Virus record (IMG/VR): IMGVR_UViG_3300023296_001674
Strand: one strand, 5' to 3'
Length of the DNA: 25,260 nucleotides
Source of the DNA: a virus
Shown: positions 3,110-24,774 of the stretch, one piece after another
Layout of the letters: each line of letters starts with the position of its first letter
Numbering within the stretch: the stretch's first letter is position 1
Notes under the pieces: generated by a model
Database searches by the model: none
Seen by the model: the letters and a program-made list of their open reading frames with translations, nothing else
Told to the model about the DNA's origin: nothing
Made by a program: the position numbers and the translations under genes

Positions 3110-3394
3110 GAGCAAACGAGATCGAATACAGTGTTAACGCGGAACGAGACTGCTAGGAACACTTAAAATATACCTAATATGGGCGCGTTGTGGATGGATT
3201 TCCTTTTGTGGAATGATAAAAGCAATGGTAGGAAGCAAAGCGACCTACTAGGGAAAGCGTTATATGCTTTCCTGATAAGTTATTTTGTATGGAAGTGCCA
3301 TTAAAGCAGAACAATTGGTTTGGCGACCAAGCACCTTCGGGGCATAAAATCTGCTACTACTATACTATTTTAATCATAACTAAGTGTCACAAAA

Positions 3395-3464
3395 TATTGT
3401 ATGGTGTAGTGGTAACACGCTGCCTTTATCGGCGGAGCCGTGGGTTCGAGTCCTACTATGATAT
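3395..3464 (+). tRNA. tRNA-like element (AU-rich acceptor, D and T arms fold; anticodon loop irregular; no CCA), possible pseudogene
   Basis: Acceptor TATTGTA/TATGATA; D stem GTGT/ACAC; T arm GTGGG-TTCGAGT-CCTAC. Anticodon stem CTGCC/GGCGG leaves only a 6-nt loop. Confidence 0.3.
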
Positions 3465-3565
3465 TTGGATTACGTTCAGTGTGCACACCGAACGCCACAA
3501 ATTATCTGTTATTATCGCGATAGTGATAGATAATGTTGGGTCACTTAGTTATGATTAAAGTTTTT

Positions 3566-3790
3566 AGGGTGTTCGTCTAGTGGATTAGGACGCGCCGCCT
3601 TGGGTAGTTGGAGTTCGATTCTCCTTAGCAACGGTTACGTAAATCCGCACGGTGAGACATTGGTTCGAATCCAATACATGTTAAAATAACGATTTCACAT
3701 GAGATGTATAGTTTTAATGGATAAATCAGGCATGAGCCTTGTGCGGCAAGATAGTGGGTTCGATTCCCCTTGCGTTGAATGTGAAATGAT
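3566..3790 (+). other. cluster of tRNA-derived remnants: three T-arm-like hairpins without complete cloverleaves
   Basis: T-arm-like hairpins: GGAG-TTCGATT-CTCC, ATTGG-TTCGAAT-CCAAT, GGG-TTCGATT-CCC. No matching acceptor stems or anticodon arms found by hand. Confidence 0.3.
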
Positions 3791-6089: not shown

Positions 6090-6854
6090 TTAATCATTGT
6101 GTAGTTGCGTTTTTTCATATTCATCGACATCAAGTTTTAATTGTTTATATGTGATAGATGATGTATTACGTTTTTTTACATTATCTTTCTGAAGCATTAT
6201 TTCACAATTTAATGGATGTGTAATATAATATGGATCATACTTGTTAACAATTGATTCATTTATAGATATTTTATGATCCCTCGCTACACCGTTTGAATTT
6301 TTCTTTGGGACATACCAACCATGTTTTTTTATTAAATCTAAATTGAGTAGATTGGGATAATCATTGACATCAAATTTGAAATAATATGGACGTTTCGTAG
6401 TTTGAAGTTCTTTTGCTGTTCTACCATATTGTTCAACGCAGCATTGACATTTTGATATATACCGATCTTTGGCGGTGAAAAGTGTAATACAGGTGGAGCA
6501 AGTTCTAAACCATACCATGGAATATTCACCATCGATATATTTTTTTAGTTTATCCCATCTTTTTGGATAATGACCAATATCTTTTATGATTTTGATATGA
6601 CTTTTACTCATTCGTTCTTTAGTTTCATTGCTATGTTTGCGACGGCTATTATTATATTTGGCGGCACAAGATTGATTACAATATTTCTTTTTTATAAGTG
6701 CTTCATCGTATGACCATGATTTGCCGCATTGGTTGCATGTTTTTGGATTTTTATTATATTCGGCAATGCGATGGTTTTTTTGATTTATTTGCGTTTTTCG
6801 TGAAGCTATAAATCCTAATTTACCAGCTTCAGATTTGGACAATTTACATGTCAT
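6090..6854 (-). CDS. HNH-family homing-endonuclease-like protein with N-terminal Cys-rich (CxxC…CxxSC) motifs; paralog 1 of 4
   Basis: 254 aa. C-terminal block …GVARDHKISINESIVNKYDPYYITHPLNCEIMLQKDNVKK shared with ORFs 8344, 11473 and 14027. Embedded in the tRNA array. Confidence 0.75.
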   Translation of the reverse strand: MTCKLSKSEAGKLGFIASRKTQINQKNHRIAEYNKNPKTCNQCGKSWSYDEALIKKKYCNQSCAAKYNNSRRKHSNETKERMSKSHIKIIKDIGHYPKRWDKLKKYIDGEYSMVWFRTCSTCITLFTAKDRYISKCQCCVEQYGRTAKELQTTKRPYYFKFDVNDYPNLLNLDLIKKHGWYVPKKNSNGVARDHKISINESIVNKYDPYYITHPLNCEIMLQKDNVKKRNTSSITYKQLKLDVDEYEKTQLHND

Positions 6855-8286: not shown

Positions 8287-8362
8287 TTCAGATGACCAAG
8301 CAAGTGAACGGGACCGCCTGTTAAGCGGATATTGCAGGGAGCGTTACCCTGATCTGGAGCCA
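8287..8362 (+). tRNA. tRNA-Asn (anticodon GUU) with non-canonical T loop AGCGTTA; CCA encoded
   Basis: Acceptor TTCAGAT/ATCTGGA; anticodon stem (A)CCGC/GCGG(A), loop CTGTTAA; T stem CAGGG/CCCTG perfect but loop lacks TTC; weak D stem. Confidence 0.5.
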
Positions 8363-8991
8363 ATAACTTTATATTTTTTGTCCCATTCATTTATTCGATG
8401 GTATAAATCATATAATGATAAACTTGAATGACGATTTTTAGATGAATTTTCTGGCTGTGGCATTATCTTGCAGTTCGCTGGATGTGATATATGATTTGGG
8501 TCTATTTTGTTTACAAATCCATCATGTACACTATACATGTGATCTCTTGTTAATCCGTTTTTATTTTTGGTACTATGATACATGCCCTGTTGATGTATCA
8601 TTATAAAATCAAATTCTTCTGGAAATGTTTGAAATGAAAATATAAATTTACATTGTTCTTTATATTTTATCTTCTCAATCATGTATTCTTGTGGTGTCAC
8701 CCTCATGGCATTTGTGCAAGTAACTGCACAACTTCTTCCGCAATAATATTCACGAGTTCCGGTTATAGGGCTAAATTTATTATTACATGTTGGATTTTTA
8801 CACTCGATTAGTCGTTTTTGATATTTTGTTAAATTTTTTACCGATATTTCTTTTTTGGTGAATATGCAACTACATGTAATATGTGATATTTTACCGTTGC
8901 TTTTGCCATGCATACGTGAATGACCATTCAATGCCATTAAGGATTTAAATTGATTATCGCATATATTACATGTATAAATATCTTTAGACAT
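8344..8991 (-). CDS. HNH-family homing-endonuclease-like protein with N-terminal C2H2 zinc finger (CNICDNQFKSLMALNGHSRMH); paralog 2 of 4
   Basis: Start trimmed to the Met at 8989-8991, which has a strong SD (GGAGG 6 nt upstream on minus strand). The ORF-track extension to 9204 runs through the plus-strand tRNA at 9081-9166. C-terminal HNH block shared with paralogs. Confidence 0.75.
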   Translation of the reverse strand: MSKDIYTCNICDNQFKSLMALNGHSRMHGKSNGKISHITCSCIFTKKEISVKNLTKYQKRLIECKNPTCNNKFSPITGTREYYCGRSCAVTCTNAMRVTPQEYMIEKIKYKEQCKFIFSFQTFPEEFDFIMIHQQGMYHSTKNKNGLTRDHMYSVHDGFVNKIDPNHISHPANCKIMPQPENSSKNRHSSLSLYDLYHRINEWDKKYKVIGSRSG

Positions 8992-9080: not shown

Positions 9081-9166
9081 TCGGATATAGGAGAATTGGT
9101 AGACCCAGAAGATTGTTAATCTTCCGCAGCAATGCATTCCAGGTTCGAGTCCTGGTATCCGAGCCA
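9081..9166 (+). tRNA. class-II (long variable arm) tRNA with Leu-like D loop (GAATTGGTAGAC), G73 and anticodon GUU (Asn codons); CCA encoded
   Basis: Acceptor TCGGATA/TATCCGA perfect; anticodon stem GAAGA/TCTTC perfect, loop TTGTTAA; variable arm 14 nt (GCA-GCAA-TGC); T arm CCAGG-TTCGAGT-CCTGG; G73-CCA. Confidence 0.55.
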
Positions 9167-11228: not shown

Positions 11229-11498
11229 ATGGATAATAGTACATTAATAGCGTTAGGAAGTTTGTTGTTTGCCATGATTGGTGGATTTTGGGGTGTCATA
11301 ACATACATCCTTGGAATCATCAAGGTGGAAAACGTTGAACGTCGTGGTGTCCAAGAAAAATTATATATGCGCGATGATGTAGCCAAAGATGTAATGAACG
11401 AAAGTTTAACAGAAGTAAAAAGTACCATCCGTGATACGAATGATAGACTCATACGTGTAGAAACAATATTATATGAAAGAACTGATAGAACAAAATAA
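11229..11498 (+). CDS. small membrane protein (N-terminal TM helix plus charged coiled-coil tail), 89 aa
   Basis: Hydrophobic segment LIALGSLLFAMIGGFWGVITYILGII followed by a charged tail; overlaps the next gene start. Confidence 0.5.
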   Translation: MDNSTLIALGSLLFAMIGGFWGVITYILGIIKVENVERRGVQEKLYMRDDVAKDVMNESLTEVKSTIRDTNDRLIRVETILYERTDRTK

Positions 11499-12108
11499 AA
11501 TATGGTTTTTAAGCAAAACGGTAATACGTTGTATAAATAGTTATATGGTTGATTTAAGAAAGAGTTTGCAAACACCAAAAGTTTGCTGTATTGAATGTAA
11601 AACAATATTTAGAACTAATCATTTTGTTAGACACTCGAAGAAGCGATGTATTGAGTGGAAAAAGAAAAACGGCATGATCCCAAAAGGGAAGCGTGGCGGT
11701 TGGAATAAAGGATTAACGAAAATGACTAGTTCGTTGGTCAAAAAAGGAACCGATACTTATCGTCGCCGTTATGAAAATGGTGAATATACACGACGCACAC
11801 AAACCGATGATATAAAGAAACAATATTGGCAAGATTGTAAATTTAAATTCAATGTTTATAATTATCCTGAAATATTTGACTTAAATTTACTCGATAAATT
11901 TGGGTGGTATCATCCTGTAGAAAATCCAAGTGGCGTAAGTAGAGATCATATTATTTCTGTATCATATGGATGGAAAAATGGTATAGATTCGAATATTATT
12001 AATCATATAGCCAATTGTAAATTGATGATTCATTTAGAAAATAACAAAAAAAATAATCGATCTGATTTATTATTAGAAGAATTATTACAAAAAATACACT
12101 CTATGTAG
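11473..12108 (+). CDS. HNH-family homing-endonuclease-like protein with N-terminal Cys-rich motif (CCIECKT…H…H); paralog 3 of 4; TAG stop
   Basis: C-terminal block YWQDCKFKFNVYNYPEIFDLNLLDKFGWYHPVENPSGVSRDHIISVSYGWKNGIDSNIINHIANCKLMIHLENNKKN shared with the other three. Confidence 0.8.
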   Translation: MKELIEQNKIWFLSKTVIRCINSYMVDLRKSLQTPKVCCIECKTIFRTNHFVRHSKKRCIEWKKKNGMIPKGKRGGWNKGLTKMTSSLVKKGTDTYRRRYENGEYTRRTQTDDIKKQYWQDCKFKFNVYNYPEIFDLNLLDKFGWYHPVENPSGVSRDHIISVSYGWKNGIDSNIINHIANCKLMIHLENNKKNNRSDLLLEELLQKIHSM

Positions 12109-12507: not shown

Positions 12508-12581
12508 GCGGGTATCGTATAATGGAATTACTACACATTGCCTATGTGTAGACGGGGGTTCGATTCCCCCTACCCGCTCCA
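12508..12581 (+). tRNA. tRNA-Gly (anticodon GCC), second copy sharing the acceptor stem and T73 of the gene at 9685; CCA encoded
   Basis: Acceptor GCGGGTA/TACCCGC; anticodon stem ACACA/TGTGT, loop TTGCCTA; T arm GGGGG-TTCGATT-CCCCC. Confidence 0.8.
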
Positions 12582-13562: not shown

Positions 13563-13757
13563 ATGAACAAGTATGACACGGCGTATAGAAATCGCATTGC
13601 TGCCCAACGCAAACAGTGGGCAAACAATACGAAACAGCGTTTGTGGAATAAACGAATAAAGATATTGTATATTGCATGTGTATGTATTATAATCTCTTTA
13701 TCGGTTGCGGCAGAAGTATTTGGATATTTAAATATAATATTTGGTTTTTTGTTGTAA
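13563..13757 (+). CDS. small membrane protein (64 aa; basic N-terminus, C-terminal TM helix)
   Basis: ORF; hydrophobic C-terminus ILYIACVCIIISLSVAAEVFGYLNIIFGFLL. Confidence 0.45.
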   Translation: MNKYDTAYRNRIAAQRKQWANNTKQRLWNKRIKILYIACVCIIISLSVAAEVFGYLNIIFGFLL

Positions 13758-13764
13758 CATGATA

Positions 13765-13843
13765 TTGACTAGTAGCTCAGTGGTTTAGAGCGGGGAGTTC
13801 TAAACTCTCGACAGCGTTGGTTCAAATCCAACCTGGTCAACCA
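13765..13843 (+). tRNA. putative amber-suppressor tRNA (anticodon CUA, reads UAG); CCA encoded
   Basis: Acceptor TGACTAG/CTGGTCA; D GCTC-AGTGGTTTA-GAGC; anticodon stem GGGAG/CTCTC, loop TTCTAAA (U33, C34-U35-A36, A37); 7-nt variable region; T arm GTTGG-TTCAAAT-CCAAC; A73-CCA. Confidence 0.6.
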
Positions 13844-13850
13844 ATACTAA

Positions 13851-14022
13851 GCGGGTATCGTATAATGGTATTATCGCAGCCTTCCATGTGATATGTTTAA
13901 CATATCTCAGGTTGAGCCATTTATTGGCTCCTTGAAGGTCGAGGGTTCAGACCCCATCCGGTTTAAGCCCGGTAGACCAACTTAAGCTGATGACGGGAGT
14001 TCGATTCTCCCTACCCGCTCCA
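13851..14022 (+). tRNA. tRNA-Gly (anticodon UCC) interrupted between positions 37 and 38 by a ~98-nt structured insert; same acceptor as the other Gly genes; CCA encoded
   Basis: 5' exon GCGGGTA-TC-GTAT…GCAGC-CTTCCA (13851-13886). 3' exon A-GCTGA-TGAC-GGGAG-TTCGATT-CTCCC-TACCCGC-T-CCA (13985-14022). First 18 nt identical to the tRNA at 12508. Confidence 0.55.
13887..13984 (+). other. intron-like insertion inside tRNA-Gly(UCC): four consecutive hairpins
   Basis: Hairpins: GATATG-TTTAA-CATATC; GAGCCA-TTTA-TTGGCTC; GGTC…GACC with a T-loop-like GGG-TTCAGAC-CCC; CCGG-TTTAAGC-CCGG. Too short for a canonical group I intron. Confidence 0.4.
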
Positions 14023-14026
14023 ATAT

Positions 14027-14818
14027 TTGATAAATAGTTATATGAAATGTAAACAATGTAAAATATCATTTACCCCTATCCCACAAGCAAAAAAAGGTAT
14101 ATTTTGTTCGCACGATTGTCATAATGTATACCAGCGCGTAAATACTCGTGAGCAATACTTAAAAAATCCCAAACGGTGTATTTTTTGTGATGATATAATA
14201 TCATATAGAGAAAATATAAAAGTGGCGAAGTTTTGCAATAGGTCTTGCGGGGCAAAATATAATAATAAAAGACGTACAGAATGCGGATACACCCCAAGTC
14301 ATAAAAAATGGTCTAGTGGTAAAATATCTGCTAAAATGTCATCAAAAATGCGCCGTGCGGATATCAAATCAAGTGTCGTGTTTGGTGATTTTACTATAAT
14401 AACATTTGCTATATGCAATATTACGAATAAACCATATGTTCTACAAACACCGCATGGTGGTATAAAGCAAATATCACCATATATTAAATCATCTAAACAG
14501 ATATATTATGAGCAAGCCAAATTTCGATTTAATGTATATGACTATCCAGATATATTTGATATAACACTTTTAGAAAAATATGGATGGTATACATGTCCCG
14601 GCAAGAAACGAAAAAATCAAAAAAAGAATATAAATGGTGTAAGTAGAGATCATATAATATCTATCAATGATGGATTTAAGAATGGGTATGATCCATATAT
14701 TTTAGCACATCCTGCTAATTGTCGATTGATTAAACAAGTGGATAATGTTAAAAAATTAGATAAATCTAATATGTCATATGACGAGTTATTGATTAACATA
14801 AAACAATGGAATGGATAG
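14027..14818 (+). CDS. HNH-family homing-endonuclease-like protein with N-terminal Cys-rich zinc-finger-like motifs; paralog 4 of 4; TAG stop
   Basis: N-terminus MKCKQCKISF…FCSHDCHNVYQ…FCNRSCGAKYNN. C-terminal block …NGVSRDHIISINDGFKNGYDPYILAHPANCRLIKQVDNVKK. Confidence 0.8.
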   Translation: MINSYMKCKQCKISFTPIPQAKKGIFCSHDCHNVYQRVNTREQYLKNPKRCIFCDDIISYRENIKVAKFCNRSCGAKYNNKRRTECGYTPSHKKWSSGKISAKMSSKMRRADIKSSVVFGDFTIITFAICNITNKPYVLQTPHGGIKQISPYIKSSKQIYYEQAKFRFNVYDYPDIFDITLLEKYGWYTCPGKKRKNQKKNINGVSRDHIISINDGFKNGYDPYILAHPANCRLIKQVDNVKKLDKSNMSYDELLINIKQWNG

Positions 14819-14825
14819 ACTATTC

Positions 14826-14900
14826 GCCCCTATAGTACAATGGTTAATATGATCGCCCGGTAAGCGATAGATGAAAGTTCGATTCTTTCTAGAGGCACCA
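14826..14900 (+). tRNA. tRNA-Thr (anticodon GGU; C at position 33), CCA encoded
   Basis: Acceptor GCCCCTA/TAGAGGC (one C·A mismatch); anticodon stem ATCGC/GCGAT perfect, loop CCGGTAA; T arm GAAAG-TTCGATT-CTTTC. Confidence 0.65.
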
Positions 14901-17225: not shown

Positions 17226-17241
17226 TTGTGGAGGCAATTAT

Positions 17242-17325
17242 GCGCGTAGCCGGTATGTTGGTACTACCACTGGTCTTCCAAACCAGCGCGAAAGCATTGG
17301 GGTTTGATTCCCCCTACCCGCTCCA
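17242..17325 (+). tRNA. tRNA-Gly (anticodon UCC) with an 11-nt variable arm (84 nt); Gly-family acceptor; CCA encoded
   Basis: Acceptor GCGCGTA/TACCCGC-T-CCA; D GGTA/TACC; anticodon stem CTGGT/ACCAG perfect, loop CTTCCAA; variable CGCGAAAGCAT; T arm (T)GGGG-TTTGATT-CCCC(C). Confidence 0.6.
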
Positions 17326-20328: not shown

Positions 20329-20436
20329 TTCCAAGTAGCTCAGATGGTAGAGCGTCTGACTGTGGAACAGATGAGCCTAAAGCTTTGAAGTTCAAATTTA
20401 ATCAGAATGTCGGCGGTTCGATCCCGTCCTTGGAAG
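20329..20436 (+). tRNA. aberrant tRNA-like gene, 108 nt, no CCA: canonical 5' half and T arm separated by a ~39-nt insertion after the anticodon arm
   Basis: Acceptor TTCCAAG/CTTGGAA perfect; D GCTC-AGATGGTA-GAGC; anticodon-like stem TCTGA/(A)CAGA with loop CTGTGGA (GUG); insert contains TTGAA-G-TTCAA; T arm GGCGG-TTCGATC-CCGTC. Confidence 0.35.
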
Positions 20437-20439
20437 CAA

Positions 20440-20575: not shown

Positions 20576-20667
20576 GCCTCGGTAGCTCAGAAAAGCAACG
20601 TAAGTTGTAGTGTAGTAGCAGGTGACTGAACCTCACCGTGTCGGTAGTTCGAATCTATCCTGGGGCA
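20576..20667 (+). tRNA. aberrant tRNA-like gene, 92 nt, no CCA: ~20 extra nt in the D region
   Basis: Acceptor GCCTCGG/CTGGGGC; 5' D stem GCTC with no partner; anticodon-like stem GGTGA/TCACC with loop CTGAACC (GAA); T arm GGTAG-TTCGAAT-CTATC. Confidence 0.35.
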
Positions 20668-20711
20668 CAAATAATACAAAGGAAGATAACAATATCAAGT
20701 GAATAACATAT

Positions 20712-20787
20712 AGTTCCGTAGCTCAGTGGATAGAGCGCAACTTTGCGAAAGTTGAAGTCGGTGGTTCGATCCCACTCGGGACTGCCA
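20712..20787 (+). tRNA. tRNA-Arg (anticodon GCG) with canonical body (CCGTAGCTCAGTGGATAGAG… resembles the E. coli Arg-ACG body), CCA encoded
   Basis: Acceptor AGTTCCG/CGGGACT; D GCTC-AGTGGATA-GAGC; anticodon stem CAACT/AGTTG perfect, loop TTGCGAA; T arm GGTGG-TTCGATC-CCACT. Confidence 0.75.
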
Positions 20788-23740: not shown

Positions 23741-24368
23741 ATGCTTAGAGGAACACGTTTGATGACTGGTGCGGAAGCATCTACATACACGAACACTGTT
23801 GACACACTACGGAGGTGTCTTCATCGATAATAATGTCGAAGAAGTTATAGTTCCGTCGTTATGGGAACAGCAGACATTTATTGATAAAGCAGGAAGTGAA
23901 ATTGTAAATCAGATGTGGGCATTTGAAGATAAGAAAAATCGCCCCGTATGTTTGATACCAGAAGTTACTGGTGTTATACAAGAAATGTGGCGCGATGATT
24001 GGAGTAAATCCAAACCAAAGCCATATTCTATTTTTTATGTGAATCGTTGTTATCGTTATGAACGACCACAGAAGGGTAGATATAGAGAATTCACACAAAT
24101 CGGATTAGAAATTCTTGGTGATACATCAGGGAATGATTACGATATGGCAATTAATTTATTGCAAAAGTGTCTCGATTGTTTTACTATAGATTATAAACTT
24201 ACAGAAACGGTACAACGCGGTTTGGCGTATTATGTTGATGATGGGTTTGAAGTCGAATGTGAGAAGTTGGGCGCACAGAAGCAAATTGCTGGTGGTGGTC
24301 GATACAATGAAGGTATTGGTTGGGCTATCGGCGTTGATAGATTAATATTGGGGATTGATGATGACTAG
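23741..24368 (+). CDS. miniaturised histidyl-tRNA-synthetase-like protein (class II motifs 2 and 3) requiring a +1 frameshift near 23804-23812, or a frameshifted pseudogene
   Basis: Frame A (ATG 23741, SD AAAGGAGAAAG) encodes MLRGTRLMTGAEASTYTNTVDTL (compare HisRS …[23 protein letters not shown]) and stops at 23828. Frame B (+1, open from 23769) encodes …YGGVF…MWAFEDKKNRPVCLIPEVTG…CYRYERPQKGRYREFTQIG…IAGGGRYNEGIGWAIGVDRL. No anticodon-binding domain. Confidence 0.55.
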
Positions 24369-24774
24369 TTTACACCTTATTACTTCACCGCGTGAATATG
24401 TGACAACTATGACACATAACTCGGATTATCTTCAGTCTTGCAAGACTAATAAACCATCATGGAAAAAAGCGGATCGTTCATTTCATACACTCGAAAATGG
24501 TGACAAATTATTTAATGTGTACTATGATAATGGTAAATTATGCGTGCAAAGATGGTATCAAAAAAGTGCTAAAATTGAATCTAATGATCTTCATCGATTG
24601 GATGGTCCAGCATATATATCTTATTATGAAAATGGCATGTATTATCGATCTTCGTGGTGGATCAATGGAAATTCTATTTCAGGCAAAGTGATGCGATCAT
24701 GGTTAAAAGAAAATAATATTTCTTCGCCATATTCAGATGAAGATCAAATGGCAATAATATTAAGGTGGGGATGA
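24355..24774 (+). CDS. hypothetical protein (139 aa) with repeated Gly/Tyr/Trp-rich motifs
   Basis: Start overlaps the upstream stop; TGA stop. Confidence 0.5.
   Translation: MMMTSLHLITSPREYVTTMTHNSDYLQSCKTNKPSWKKADRSFHTLENGDKLFNVYYDNGKLCVQRWYQKSAKIESNDLHRLDGPAYISYYENGMYYRSSWWINGNSISGKVMRSWLKENNISSPYSDEDQMAIILRWG

What the first reader, a model, noticed from the sequence alone, without database searches (positions are those of the whole stretch)
13851..14022. tRNA-Gly(UCC) split at the canonical 37/38 intron site by a 98-nt hairpin-rich insert
The 5' part (13851-13886) is nearly identical to the intact tRNA-Gly at 12508 through the D arm and continues to anticodon loop CUUCCA. The 3' part (13985-14022) supplies A38, the partner anticodon strand, a perfect T arm and the family acceptor TACCCGC-T-CCA. 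The 98 nt between them lie exactly between nt 37 and 38, where tRNA introns insert. The insert folds into four consecutive hairpins, one resembling a T arm, but is far shorter than known bacterial or phage group I tRNA introns. It may be a novel mini-intron, a remnant of a group I intron or homing-endonuclease insertion, or a processed spacer in a split tRNA.
Basis: partly seen in the sequence, partly recalled or inferred. Interest (0 to 1): 0.8.

Follow-up and report, generated by a model that had tools for sequence, protein, structure and literature searches.

The report
Conserved short intron in phage tRNA-Gly
A glycine tRNA gene of a giant bacteriophage is interrupted right after its anticodon by a 98-base structured insert; a distantly related phage keeps the same insert, so it is a real intron of the unexplained "megaphage" kind reported in 2019, not a broken gene.

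Summary
Bases 13851-14022 are one tRNA-Gly(UCC) gene carrying a 98-nt insert in the anticodon loop. Joining the halves gives a clean tRNA that is 93% identical to uninterrupted tRNA-Gly(UCC) genes on 13 viral contigs.

A second phage lineage (L015-L022) carries the same interrupted gene. Its insert is also 98 nt and 77% identical, and all substitutions in the helices keep pairing. There the base after the anticodon is U, so the splice site consistent with both copies is 36/37 (window 13886-13983), not 37/38.

No Rfam family matches, and the group I, group II and bulge-helix-bulge rules are not met. The closest known thing is the "enigmatic" tRNA introns of Lak megaphages (Devoto 2019): same position and also found in tRNA-Gly(UCC), but different sequence and layout.

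Homology between the two phages covers only the interrupted tRNA plus the probable HNH endonuclease gene directly downstream. That HNH subfamily lies next to a tRNA-Gly(UCC) gene in 8 of 8 contexts examined.

Best reading (about 0.5): a genuine intron removed by proteins (endonuclease plus RNA ligase) and carried in a homing-endonuclease cassette. Splicing is untested. It is a new variant of a known but unsolved kind.

The parts
13851..13885 (+). 5' exon of tRNA-Gly(UCC): acceptor strand, D arm, anticodon-stem 5' strand and loop nucleotides C32-C36 (anticodon UCC at 13883-13885)
   Evidence: Rfam tRNA hit 13851-14019 at 38.9 bits. ARAGORN calls the joined halves tRNA-Gly(tcc). The 13 uninterrupted homologs share ATTATCGCAGCCTTCCA. 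The 36/37 boundary comes from the L015 homolog.
13886..13983 (+). 98-nt intervening sequence (intron) under the 36/37 reading. 13887-13984 is the equally valid 37/38 reading of this window taken alone.
   Evidence: It is absent from 13 homologous tRNA genes. It is present, also 98 nt and 76/99 columns identical, in L015-L022. Fold z = -5.4. No Rfam family matches.
13890..13906 (+). P1 hairpin GAUAUG-UUUAA-CAUAUC, starting 4 nt after the 5' splice site
   Evidence: MFE folds of both homologs agree. The homolog has GAUAUGA-UUUA-UCAUAUC, which adds one A-U pair through an insertion plus a substitution.
13907..13935 (+). P2: outer helix UCAGG/CUUGA, conserved UU bulge, inner helix GAGCCA/UGGCUC, loop UUUAU
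   Evidence: In the outer helix, U-A becomes A-U (change on both sides), A-U becomes G-U, and G-U becomes A-U. The top pair of the inner helix changes from A-U to U-A. No pair is broken.
13937..13978 (+). Domain 3, closed by GGUC/GACC. The interior is either two hairpins (GGG-UUCAGA-CCC and the T-loop-like CCGG-UUUAAGC-CCGG) or one long irregular helix.
   Evidence: The closing helix and CCGG/CCGG are invariant. G-C becomes A-U in the first hairpin. MFE prefers the long helix in both sequences, while the substitution pattern fits the two-hairpin model more simply. This is unresolved.
13984..14022 (+). 3' exon: A37, A38, anticodon-stem 3' strand, variable loop, T arm, acceptor strand, discriminator U and encoded CCA
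   Evidence: It is identical (39/39) in the L015 homolog. The tRNA model alignment supports the assignment.
14042..14818 (+). Probable free-standing HNH endonuclease gene (phrog_23051 family) that forms one cassette with the interrupted tRNA

Best explanation
The 98 nt at 13886-13983 are a genuine, structured, non-self-splicing-type intron in a phage tRNA-Gly(UCC) gene, inserted directly 3' of the anticodon (36/37).

The pre-tRNA keeps its cloverleaf, and the intron projects from the anticodon loop as three folded domains.

I infer that an endonuclease cuts at both junctions and that an RNA ligase of the kind common in large phages (Rnl1/Rnl2 or RtcB) joins the anticodon loop, giving a normal 74-nt tRNA that reads GGA, 30% of the Gly codons in the 63 neighbouring genes counted.

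At the DNA level, the interrupted tRNA and the HNH endonuclease gene immediately downstream form one mobile cassette. The endonuclease lineage is tied to tRNA-Gly(UCC) genes. The intron may also split its recognition site and so protect the carrier, as in 'collaborative homing'.

Shown here:
- one gene, an exact insertion, and no known ribozyme family;
- conservation of length, sequence and pairing in a second lineage;
- homology limited to the cassette;
- the link between this HNH subfamily and tRNA-Gly(UCC).

Inferred, not shown:
- that the RNA is spliced at all;
- which enzymes do it;
- that the HNH protein cuts intron-less tRNA-Gly(UCC) DNA.
For: One gene with an exact insert.

Second lineage with the same interrupted gene: Rfam tRNA 52.2 bits with a 101-nt insertion, ARAGORN 'tRNA-Gly(tcc) i(35,98)', alignment.

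Constraint on the intron. It shows 23% differences against 40% at third codon positions of the adjacent gene, whose protein is 62.8% identical (Fisher p = 0.003). All 54 cells of 27 modelled pairs are paired. Two pairs changed on both sides and two changed on one side. In addition there is an A-U to U-A swap and an added A-U pair. Nothing is broken. Independent MFE folds give the same three domains.

Selection for a working tRNA. The loop halves CUUCC and AA and the whole 3' exon are unchanged, while the D stem differs by changes that keep or improve pairing.

The same genome region holds two more tRNA-like genes with anticodon-loop inserts (20329-20437 and 3566-3683) and one with a D-loop insert. 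This fits a general processing route.

Precedent. Lak megaphage tRNA introns lie at the same place, include one in tRNA-Gly(UCC), have no Rfam hit, and vary in presence or absence between strains (PMC6784885). Lak A1 is annotated with T4 RNA ligase 2. RNA ligases are common in jumbo phages (PMC7824862).

Cassette. tblastx homology covers only L015 1196-2171 = window 13845-14827. An HNH gene of this subfamily lies next to tRNA-Gly(UCC) in 8 of 8 contexts.
Against: There is no RNA evidence of ligated exons.

Only two distinct intron sequences exist, so the covariation is not statistically significant on its own (136 of 500 shuffles reach the observed score).

No bulge-helix-bulge or other known endonuclease signal is visible at the junctions.

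No RNA ligase, RtcB or EndA-like gene was seen in the about 44 kb of the source contig that I could read.

The D-stem differences could come from recombination with different resident tRNA-Gly genes rather than from selection after the insertion.

A second tRNA-like gene with a UCC anticodon (17241-17325) might make this one dispensable.

Six of the eight HNH-linked tRNA-Gly(UCC) genes have no intron, so the intron is not required by the endonuclease.

Confidence: 0.5

Rival explanations
1. The insert is not removed. The functional product is the 172-nt RNA itself, or the insert released from it. The tRNA body would serve as a stabilising and processing scaffold for a small structured RNA, for example a protein-binding RNA or a decoy for host anticodon nucleases. 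Alternatively the gene is a dead tRNA that persists because it hitch-hikes with the HNH cassette.
For: The insert's structure and several stem sequences are conserved. No splicing signal or enzyme was found. The array contains other aberrant tRNA-like genes that look non-functional, such as 3394-3465 and 3566-3683 with poor acceptor stems. A second UCC tRNA-like gene exists at 17241-17325.
Against: Removing exactly 98 nt restores the 7-nt loop CUUCCAA found in intron-less relatives. The anticodon and both flanking loop nucleotides are unchanged in both lineages, and the 3' exon is 100% conserved. A mere scaffold or a dead gene would not need this. A pseudogene would not keep compensatory changes in the insert.
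Confidence: 0.25
2. The 98 nt are a new, very small self-splicing or self-cleaving ribozyme. It cuts both junctions without a protein endonuclease, and the exons are joined either by reversal of the cleavage or by RtcB.
For: The fold is compact, conserved and has three domains, with invariant stem sequences GUUGAGCC, GGCUCCUUG and CCGGUAGACCAA and a conserved UU bulge. Both copies start with N-U-G-Y-G, which resembles the group II 5' consensus GUGYG (the consensus is from my own knowledge). No protein candidate was found nearby.
Against: No ribozyme or intron family of Rfam 15 matches. The best hit is twister-sister at 13 bits with E = 2, which is noise. There is no U at the 5' splice site, no terminal G, and no terminal AY. 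At 98 nt it is about half the size of the smallest group I introns known to me. Lak and other megaphage introns at the same site share no sequence with it. That argues for recognition of the tRNA body rather than an intron-borne catalytic core.
Confidence: 0.1
3. The insert is the decayed remnant of something larger, either a group I intron or a tRNA gene nested inside the tRNA as in the Lak tRNA-Thr intron. It would have no present function. RNase P and RNase Z may still cut around a tRNA-like remnant.
For: One hairpin keeps a T-loop-like pattern in both copies. Lak introns contain a tRNA or a tRNA-like module with a 7-bp acceptor stem and a canonical T arm. The insert at 3566-3683 contains a perfect T arm, GGAG-UUCGAUU-CUCC.
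Against: The tRNA model finds nothing inside the insert. There is no 7-bp acceptor-like stem ending at the 3' junction; the best candidate, AGGUUG/CAACUU, loses a pair in the homolog and competes with the better supported P2. Equal length and compensatory changes in two lineages argue against free decay.
Confidence: 0.1

Closest known systems
'Enigmatic' tRNA introns of Lak megaphages and other huge phages (Devoto et al. 2019, PMC6784885; also PMC8346664 and PMC13037316)
   Same: The host is a phage with a genome above 500 kb. The insert lies in the anticodon loop directly 3' of the anticodon. [quoted passage not shown] Sizes are similar (79-141 nt). One Lak case is also in tRNA-Gly(UCC). Lak authors got no Rfam classification, apart from a tRNA found inside the Thr intron. 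A short hairpin starts 1-4 nt after the 5' junction. Several tRNAs per genome are affected. The removal mechanism is unknown.
   Different: No sequence similarity was found. By my reading of the published sequences, Lak introns are A/U-rich and built as hairpin, A/U linker, tRNA-like module (7-bp acceptor stem plus canonical T arm), then CA. The present intron is 46% G+C and has no linker and no acceptor/T-arm module. It has a bulged P2 helix and a GGUC/GACC-closed domain. Cross-lineage covariation and linkage to an HNH gene are seen here. I did not find either discussed in the passages of the Lak paper that I read.
Bacterial group I introns in tRNA anticodon loops (tRNA-Leu 34/35, tRNA-fMet 33/34, tRNA-Arg 36/37; PMC13011429)
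   Same: Bacterial or phage setting. The insertion is in the anticodon loop at a position (36/37) that group I introns use, whereas none was found at 37/38 in 4,934 genomes.
   Different: The insert is 98 nt, against about 200 nt or more (my own knowledge). No Intron_gpI hit was found. The 5' exon ends in C, not U, and the intron ends in U or C, not G.
Archaeal and eukaryotic protein-spliced tRNA introns (EndA/Sen endonuclease plus RtcB or Trl1 ligase; PMC4090602, PMC3400036)
   Same: It is a short intron without a ribozyme core, next to the anticodon. The mature domain is folded and the intron protrudes. A two-enzyme cut-and-join route is the most economical mechanism.
   Different: The canonical site in those systems is 37/38, whereas here 36/37 is favoured. 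No bulge-helix-bulge motif or anticodon-intron pairing was found. No EndA homolog is known for the phage or for bacteria, and the full genome was not readable.
   Same: An ORF-less intron sits in a conserved gene with an endonuclease gene immediately beside it, and the two are shared as a unit between otherwise unrelated genomes. The endonuclease family lives in phage tRNA arrays. An HNH-driven tRNA replacement is visible in L007.
   Different: The known cases involve self-splicing group I introns. Cleavage specificity is untested here. Most tRNA-Gly(UCC) genes next to this HNH subfamily have no intron.

Membership tests
Group I intron | Match to the group I covariance model (conserved P3-P8 core) | tested here: not met
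   cmscan with permissive filters at E <= 10 on 13700-14100 and on the insert alone gave no Intron_gpI hit.
Group I intron | U at the end of the 5' exon (U-G pair in P1) and G as the last intron nucleotide | tested here: not met
   Under 36/37 the exon ends in C36 and the introns end in U (window) or C (L015). Under 37/38 the exons end in A or U and both introns end in A.
Group II / group III intron | Domain V/VI match, 5' GUGYG, 3' AY, bulged branch-point A | tested here: not met
   No Intron_gpII or group-II-D1D4 hit was found. The 5' ends AUGUG and UUGCG match only UGYG. The 3' ends are UU and UC. No bulged A lies 7-8 nt from the 3' junction.
Archaeal/eukaryal endonuclease-spliced tRNA intron | Bulge-helix-bulge motif (two 3-nt bulges carrying the splice sites, separated by a 4-bp helix) or an anticodon-intron pair | tested here: not met
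   In the MFE and centroid folds of the window pre-tRNA and the MFE fold of the homolog, the junction nucleotides themselves are unpaired; the homolog's MFE pairs nearby segments. Inspection finds no 4-bp helix between anticodon-loop nucleotides and the intron 3' end.
Archaeal/eukaryal endonuclease-spliced tRNA intron | Presence of an EndA/Sen-type endonuclease and an RtcB or Trl1-type ligase in the system | not testable with these tools
   Only about 44 kb of the 570,750-bp source contig could be read. None was found there.
Megaphage 'enigmatic' tRNA introns (Lak type) | A non-group-I insert directly 3' of the anticodon in a tRNA gene of a huge phage, with intact exons | tested here: met
   The source contig is 570,750 bp. 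The gene content is jumbo-phage-like. Insert position and intact exons are shown.
Megaphage 'enigmatic' tRNA introns (Lak type) | Internal tRNA or tRNA-like module (7-bp acceptor stem plus canonical T arm) preceded by a hairpin and an A/U linker (my reading of Table S6) | tested here: not met
   The 5' hairpin is present (P1). There is no tRNA hit inside the insert and no conserved 7-bp terminal stem. Only one T-loop-like hairpin is present.
Megaphage 'enigmatic' tRNA introns (Lak type) | Sequence homology to the published Lak or JGI-phage introns | tested here: not met
   blastn with word size 7 gave a best E of 0.96 over 8-15 nt.
Known self-cleaving ribozymes (hammerhead, twister, twister-sister, pistol, hatchet, HDV-like, hairpin) | Covariance-model match | tested here: not met
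   The only hit is twister-sister at 12.9-13 bits against a gathering score of 34, with E = 2-8.
Free-standing HNH homing endonuclease cassette | HNH (beta-beta-alpha-metal) nuclease domain | tested here: inconclusive
Free-standing HNH homing endonuclease cassette | Mobility as a unit and a patchy distribution next to a conserved target gene | tested here: met
   Homology between the two phages is limited to tRNA plus ORF. The subfamily is adjacent to tRNA-Gly(UCC) in 8 of 8 contexts with otherwise unrelated neighbours.
Free-standing HNH homing endonuclease cassette | Site-specific cleavage of alleles that lack the element | not testable with these tools
   This needs a biochemical assay.

The most novel reading that the evidence does not exclude
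Large phages of bacteria run a protein-dependent tRNA splicing pathway that recognises the tRNA body and cuts at 36/37. Such a pathway is otherwise thought to be confined to archaea and eukaryotes. This intron would be one of its substrates. In addition, the intron and the adjacent tRNA-Gly(UCC)-specific HNH endonuclease would form a co-mobile pair, with the intron protecting the carrier gene from cleavage.
Probability: 0.4. Interest if true: 0.8.

Novelty: new variant of a known kind. Interest (0 to 1): 0.58.

Why it matters
Textbook knowledge says bacterial and phage tRNA introns are self-splicing group I introns. Short introns without a ribozyme core in megaphage tRNAs have been noted since 2019 but remain unexplained.

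This locus adds three things:
- A G+C-richer, easily synthesised 98-nt example in an ordinary tRNA-Gly(UCC).
- A second diverged copy, which shows the intron is under structural constraint and places the cut at 36/37.
- A physical link to a tRNA-Gly(UCC)-associated HNH endonuclease.

Together these make the open question directly testable: who splices these introns, and why are they kept? The test needs one 172-nt transcript, one candidate nuclease, and intron-less target alleles that are already in hand.

Tried and rejected
(1) Two unrelated decayed tRNAs: rejected, because 13 uninterrupted homologs cover both halves.

(2) Repeat element, MITE or terminator: the insert has no other copy in the window or in 304 kb of related loci. 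It has no terminal inverted repeats. No terminator or promoter signal stands out.

(3) Shared motif between the Gly and His-like inserts (GAGCC...UUGAAG.UC): not significant. UUGAAGUUC is also just a tRNA-Phe anticodon loop.

(4) Hammerhead reading of CUGAUGA in the 3' exon, box C/D reading, hairpin-ribozyme reading of GGUC: the required partner motifs are absent or not conserved in L015 (by inspection).

(5) Nested tRNA: no model hit.

(6) Closing stem AGGUUG/CAACUU, which would make the insert tRNA-sized inside: it competes with P2 and loses a pair in L015.

(7) Database scans for more copies all failed. The scans covered IMG/VR, JGI metagenomes and GTDB genomes. They returned nothing or chance hits in coding DNA. 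Two protein searches found no third lineage closer than 46%.

(8) Alternative genetic code in this region: TAG ends 10 of 63 genes, so this region uses the standard code despite the amber-suppressor tRNA next door.

(9) Search for splicing enzymes in the readable flanks: none found.

Full report
WHAT IS THERE

The window is the tRNA-array region of a very large phage. It holds 27 ARAGORN tRNAs, plus further Rfam tRNA hits. Its proteins are jumbo-phage-like: thymidine kinase, fatty-acid desaturase, DUF7275/7277, a HisRS fragment and L7/L12. The same sequence is found on a 74-kb Logan contig and a 570,750-bp JGI contig.

Positions 13851-14022 read as GCGGGUAUCGUAUAAUGGUAUUAUCGCAGCCUUCC(A), then the insert, then (A)AGCUGAUGACGGGAGUUCGAUUCUCCCUACCCGCUCCA.

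- The Rfam tRNA model aligns end to end over 13851-14019 at 38.9 bits, with a 100-nt insertion in the anticodon loop.
- ARAGORN calls the joined halves a 74-nt tRNA-Gly(tcc).
- The whole-window scan at gathering thresholds missed the gene, and so did ARAGORN run in intron mode on this copy.

ONE GENE, NOT TWO WRECKS

A 17-mer from the end of the 5' half finds 13 IMG/VR contigs. In all of them it continues without interruption into the 3' half:

GCGGGTATAGTATAATGGTATTATCGCAGCCTTCCAAGCTGAGGATAGGAGTTCGATTCTCCTTACCCGCTCCA

This differs from the joined window halves at 5 of 74 positions. Two of the differences form a compensating pair in the T stem.

A SECOND LINEAGE CARRIES THE SAME INTERRUPTED GENE

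The ORF just downstream (14042-14818) has a 62%-identical homolog, P0003, on eight Logan contigs shown, of nine that carry it. Directly upstream of it in every one lies an interrupted tRNA-Gly(UCC):

- Rfam gives 52.2 bits with a 101-nt insertion.
- ARAGORN in intron mode reports 'tRNA-Gly(tcc) i(35,98)'.

Comparison of the two copies:

| Segment | Identity |
|---|---|
| Insert (98 nt in both) | 76 of 99 aligned columns |
| 3' exon | 39/39 |
| 5' exon | 26/35 |
| Anticodon loop halves CUUCC and AA | unchanged |

The 5' exon differences lie mostly in the D arm, and the L015 D stem is fully paired.

WHERE EXACTLY THE INSERT SITS

In the window alone, one A can be assigned to either side, which gives site 37/38 or site 36/37. 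In L015 the base after UCC is U, and the 3' exon begins AAGCUGA. Only a 36/37 cut regenerates CUUCCAA, the loop of the intron-less genes.

I therefore place the intron at 13886-13983. This matters for comparison:

- 37/38 is the archaeal and eukaryotic canonical site.
- A survey of 4,934 bacterial genomes found group I introns at 33/34, 34/35, 35/36 and 36/37, but never at 37/38 (PMC13011429).
[quoted passage not shown] From their sequences, all four Lak introns can be read as 36/37 followed by AA.

STRUCTURE AND CONSTRAINT

The insert folds far better than shuffled sequence (-38.3 kcal/mol, z = -5.4). In the full window precursor the cloverleaf is retained and the insert protrudes from the anticodon loop. 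Independent MFE folds of the two insert homologs alone give the same three domains.

- **P1:** GAUAUG-UUUAA-CAUAUC in the window, GAUAUGA-UUUA-UCAUAUC in L015.
- **P2:** outer helix UCAGG/CUUGA (ACGAG/CUUGU in L015), a conserved UU bulge, and inner helix GAGCCA/UGGCUC (GAGCCU/AGGCUC in L015).
- **Domain 3:** closed by the invariant GGUC/GACC.

In a 27-pair model all 54 cells are standard pairs. Two pairs changed on both sides, two changed on one side, and none is broken. In addition there is an A-U to U-A swap at the top of P2 and an extra A-U pair in P1, both hidden by an indel in the alignment. With only two sequences the shuffle control is not significant (136/500), so this is suggestive rather than proven.

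The intron differs at 23% of columns. Third codon positions of the adjacent gene differ at 40% (Fisher p = 0.003).

The interior of domain 3 is unresolved. It is either two hairpins or one long irregular helix. The other hairpin, CCGG-UUUAAGC-CCGG (CCGG-UUUGAAU-CCGG in L015), keeps a T-loop-like pattern in both.

WHAT IT IS NOT

No Rfam 15 family matches the insert. The best hit is twister-sister at 13 bits with E = 2.

- **Group I rules fail:** no core match, 98 nt, no U at the 5' site, no terminal G.
- **Group II rules fail:** there is a partial 5' match, N-U-G-Y-G, which I regard as coincidental.
- **No bulge-helix-bulge motif** is present.
- **No tRNA is nested inside**.
- **It is not a repeat**.
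- **It has no ORF** and no promoter or terminator signal of note.

PRECEDENT

Devoto et al. [quoted passage not shown] These occur in tRNA-Tyr, -Phe, -Thr and -Gly(UCC). They are 79-141 nt and have no Rfam classification. Their presence varies between strains. The same study found further anticodon-loop and D-loop inserts in a large JGI phage.

Later papers repeat the observation without a mechanism.

My reading of their Table S6 is that the Lak introns share this layout: 1-2 nt, a 5-bp hairpin, an A/U linker, a tRNA-like module, then CA. The present intron shares the site, the size and the 5' hairpin. It shares no sequence with them and has no tRNA-like module. It is therefore a new variant of a known, unsolved kind.

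The window itself holds more such cases:

- 20329-20437: a His(GUG)-like tRNA with an insert of about 35 nt.
- 3566-3683: an insert of about 45 nt that contains a perfect T arm.
- 20576-20667: a D-loop insert.

THE CASSETTE

tblastx shows that the window and L015 are homologous only over L015 1196-2171 = window 13845-14827. That span is the interrupted tRNA plus the downstream ORF. The flanks are unrelated.

The ORF belongs to phrog_23051, which has four paralogs in this tRNA array. Its features:

- two N-terminal CxxC...CSxxC ribbons, replaced by HTH domains in distant relatives;
- a conserved C-terminal motif GVSRDHIIS...N.DP...HPANC...H..N..K.

In all eight contexts of this subfamily that I examined, the gene lies next to a tRNA-Gly(UCC). 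The contexts are the window, L015, L026, L030, L032, L060, L061 and L062. The intron is present only in the two cases where the tRNA and the endonuclease gene are co-oriented.

L007 shows an HNH gene beside a truncated tRNA and a replacement copy. This illustrates endonuclease-driven turnover in tRNA arrays.

MOST LIKELY MECHANISM

The intron is real and constrained. The exons, including the anticodon, are preserved. Several tRNAs of the genome carry inserts in the anticodon loop, and unrelated introns sit directly 3' of the anticodon in other huge phages.

This pattern is what one expects if the tRNA body, not the intron, directs cutting. That is a protein endonuclease followed by an RNA ligase. 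Jumbo phages commonly encode Rnl1, Rnl2 or RtcB (PMC7824862), and Lak A1 has an Rnl2 annotation.

I give this about 0.5. None of the RNA steps is shown, and I could not read most of the genome to look for the enzymes.

| Rival | Weight |
|---|---|
| RNA that is not spliced (scaffolded small RNA, decoy or hitch-hiking pseudogene) | 0.25 |
| New small ribozyme | 0.1 |
| Functionless remnant | 0.1 |

The idea that the intron protects the gene from its neighbour's endonuclease (collaborative homing) is an inference from the cassette structure alone.

VERDICT

The interpretation as an intron is supported. The group I remnant idea is not. The kind is already in the literature, but this variant adds a diverged homolog and an endonuclease link, which makes it a good experimental handle. 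Interest 0.58.

Noticed in passing
window 20329-20437: A tRNA-His(GUG)-like gene with an insert of about 35 nt in the anticodon loop, after nt 36-38 (ambiguous). Rfam tRNA 54.1 bits; ARAGORN finds it only in intron mode. It lacks an encoded CCA, unlike most tRNAs of the array. The insert is one irregular hairpin followed by AAAUUUA.
   Followed up: partly
window 3566-3683: A tRNA-like gene (Rfam 31.3 bits) with an insert of about 45-51 nt in the anticodon loop. The insert contains a perfect T arm, GGAG-UUCGAUU-CUCC. The acceptor stem is poor, so it may be a pseudogene or a tRNA-in-tRNA remnant.
   Followed up: partly
window 20576-20667: A tRNA-Phe(GAA)-like gene with about 20 extra nt in the D loop and no CCA (Rfam 36.7 bits). 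It resembles the D-loop insert listed for a large JGI phage in Devoto et al., Table S6.
   Followed up: no
window 17241-17325; L015:4937-5022: A second tRNA-like gene with a UCC anticodon. It has a long variable arm (GC-GAAA-GC hairpin), a T loop UUUGAUU and the Gly-type end TACCCGC-U-CCA (Rfam tRNA-Sec 38.4 bits, below threshold). ARAGORN did not call it in the window. An analogous 86-nt gene lies in the related phage. It is a class-II-like tRNA reading GGA of unknown identity.
   Followed up: partly
window 13766-13843: An amber-suppressor tRNA (anticodon CUA, labelled 'Pyl' by ARAGORN; Rfam 57 bits) lies 7 nt upstream of the interrupted tRNA-Gly. Yet TAG ends 10 of 63 genes in this region, so any recoding would apply elsewhere in the genome or later in infection.
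   Followed up: partly
window 6090-6854 (-), 8344-8991 (-), 11473-12108 (+), 14042-14818 (+): Four paralogs of the phrog_23051 probable HNH endonuclease lie inside the tRNA array. Each abuts a different tRNA gene: Thr(UGU), Asp, Cys and Gly(UCC).
   Followed up: partly
L007:10160-10700 (IMGVR_UViG_3300021364_001752): A 5' fragment of a tRNA-Thr gene (gctcctatagctcagttggtagagcag) is followed by an HNH ORF (MDTFICQNCGKE...) and then a complete, different tRNA-Thr(UGU). This is an apparent endonuclease-mediated replacement of a tRNA gene.
   Followed up: no
window 9081-9166; L015:5856-5941: A tRNA-Asn(GUU) of 86 nt and a tRNA-Thr(UGU) with a 13-nt insertion in the variable region. These are class-I tRNAs with long variable arms.
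   Followed up: no
window 3394-3465: A tRNA-like gene with a 6-nt anticodon loop (ARAGORN 'tRNA-???', two-base anticodon; Rfam 46.9 bits).
   Followed up: no
L057:7832-8281 (source contig upstream of the window); L060:7458-9188; window 20639-20736: The source phage has a faint TROVE (Ro60-like) hit. A different 572-kb phage has a full TROVE/vWA_Ro60 protein next to its HNH and tRNA-Gly(UCC) pair. The window also has a weak YrlA (Y RNA-like) hit of 15.7 bits. A Ro60/Y-RNA module may be present in these megaphages.
   Followed up: no
window 23769-24774: The histidyl-tRNA synthetase homology is split over two overlapping ORFs in different frames (23769-24368 and 24355-24774). This suggests a frameshifted or fragmented HisRS gene.
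   Followed up: no
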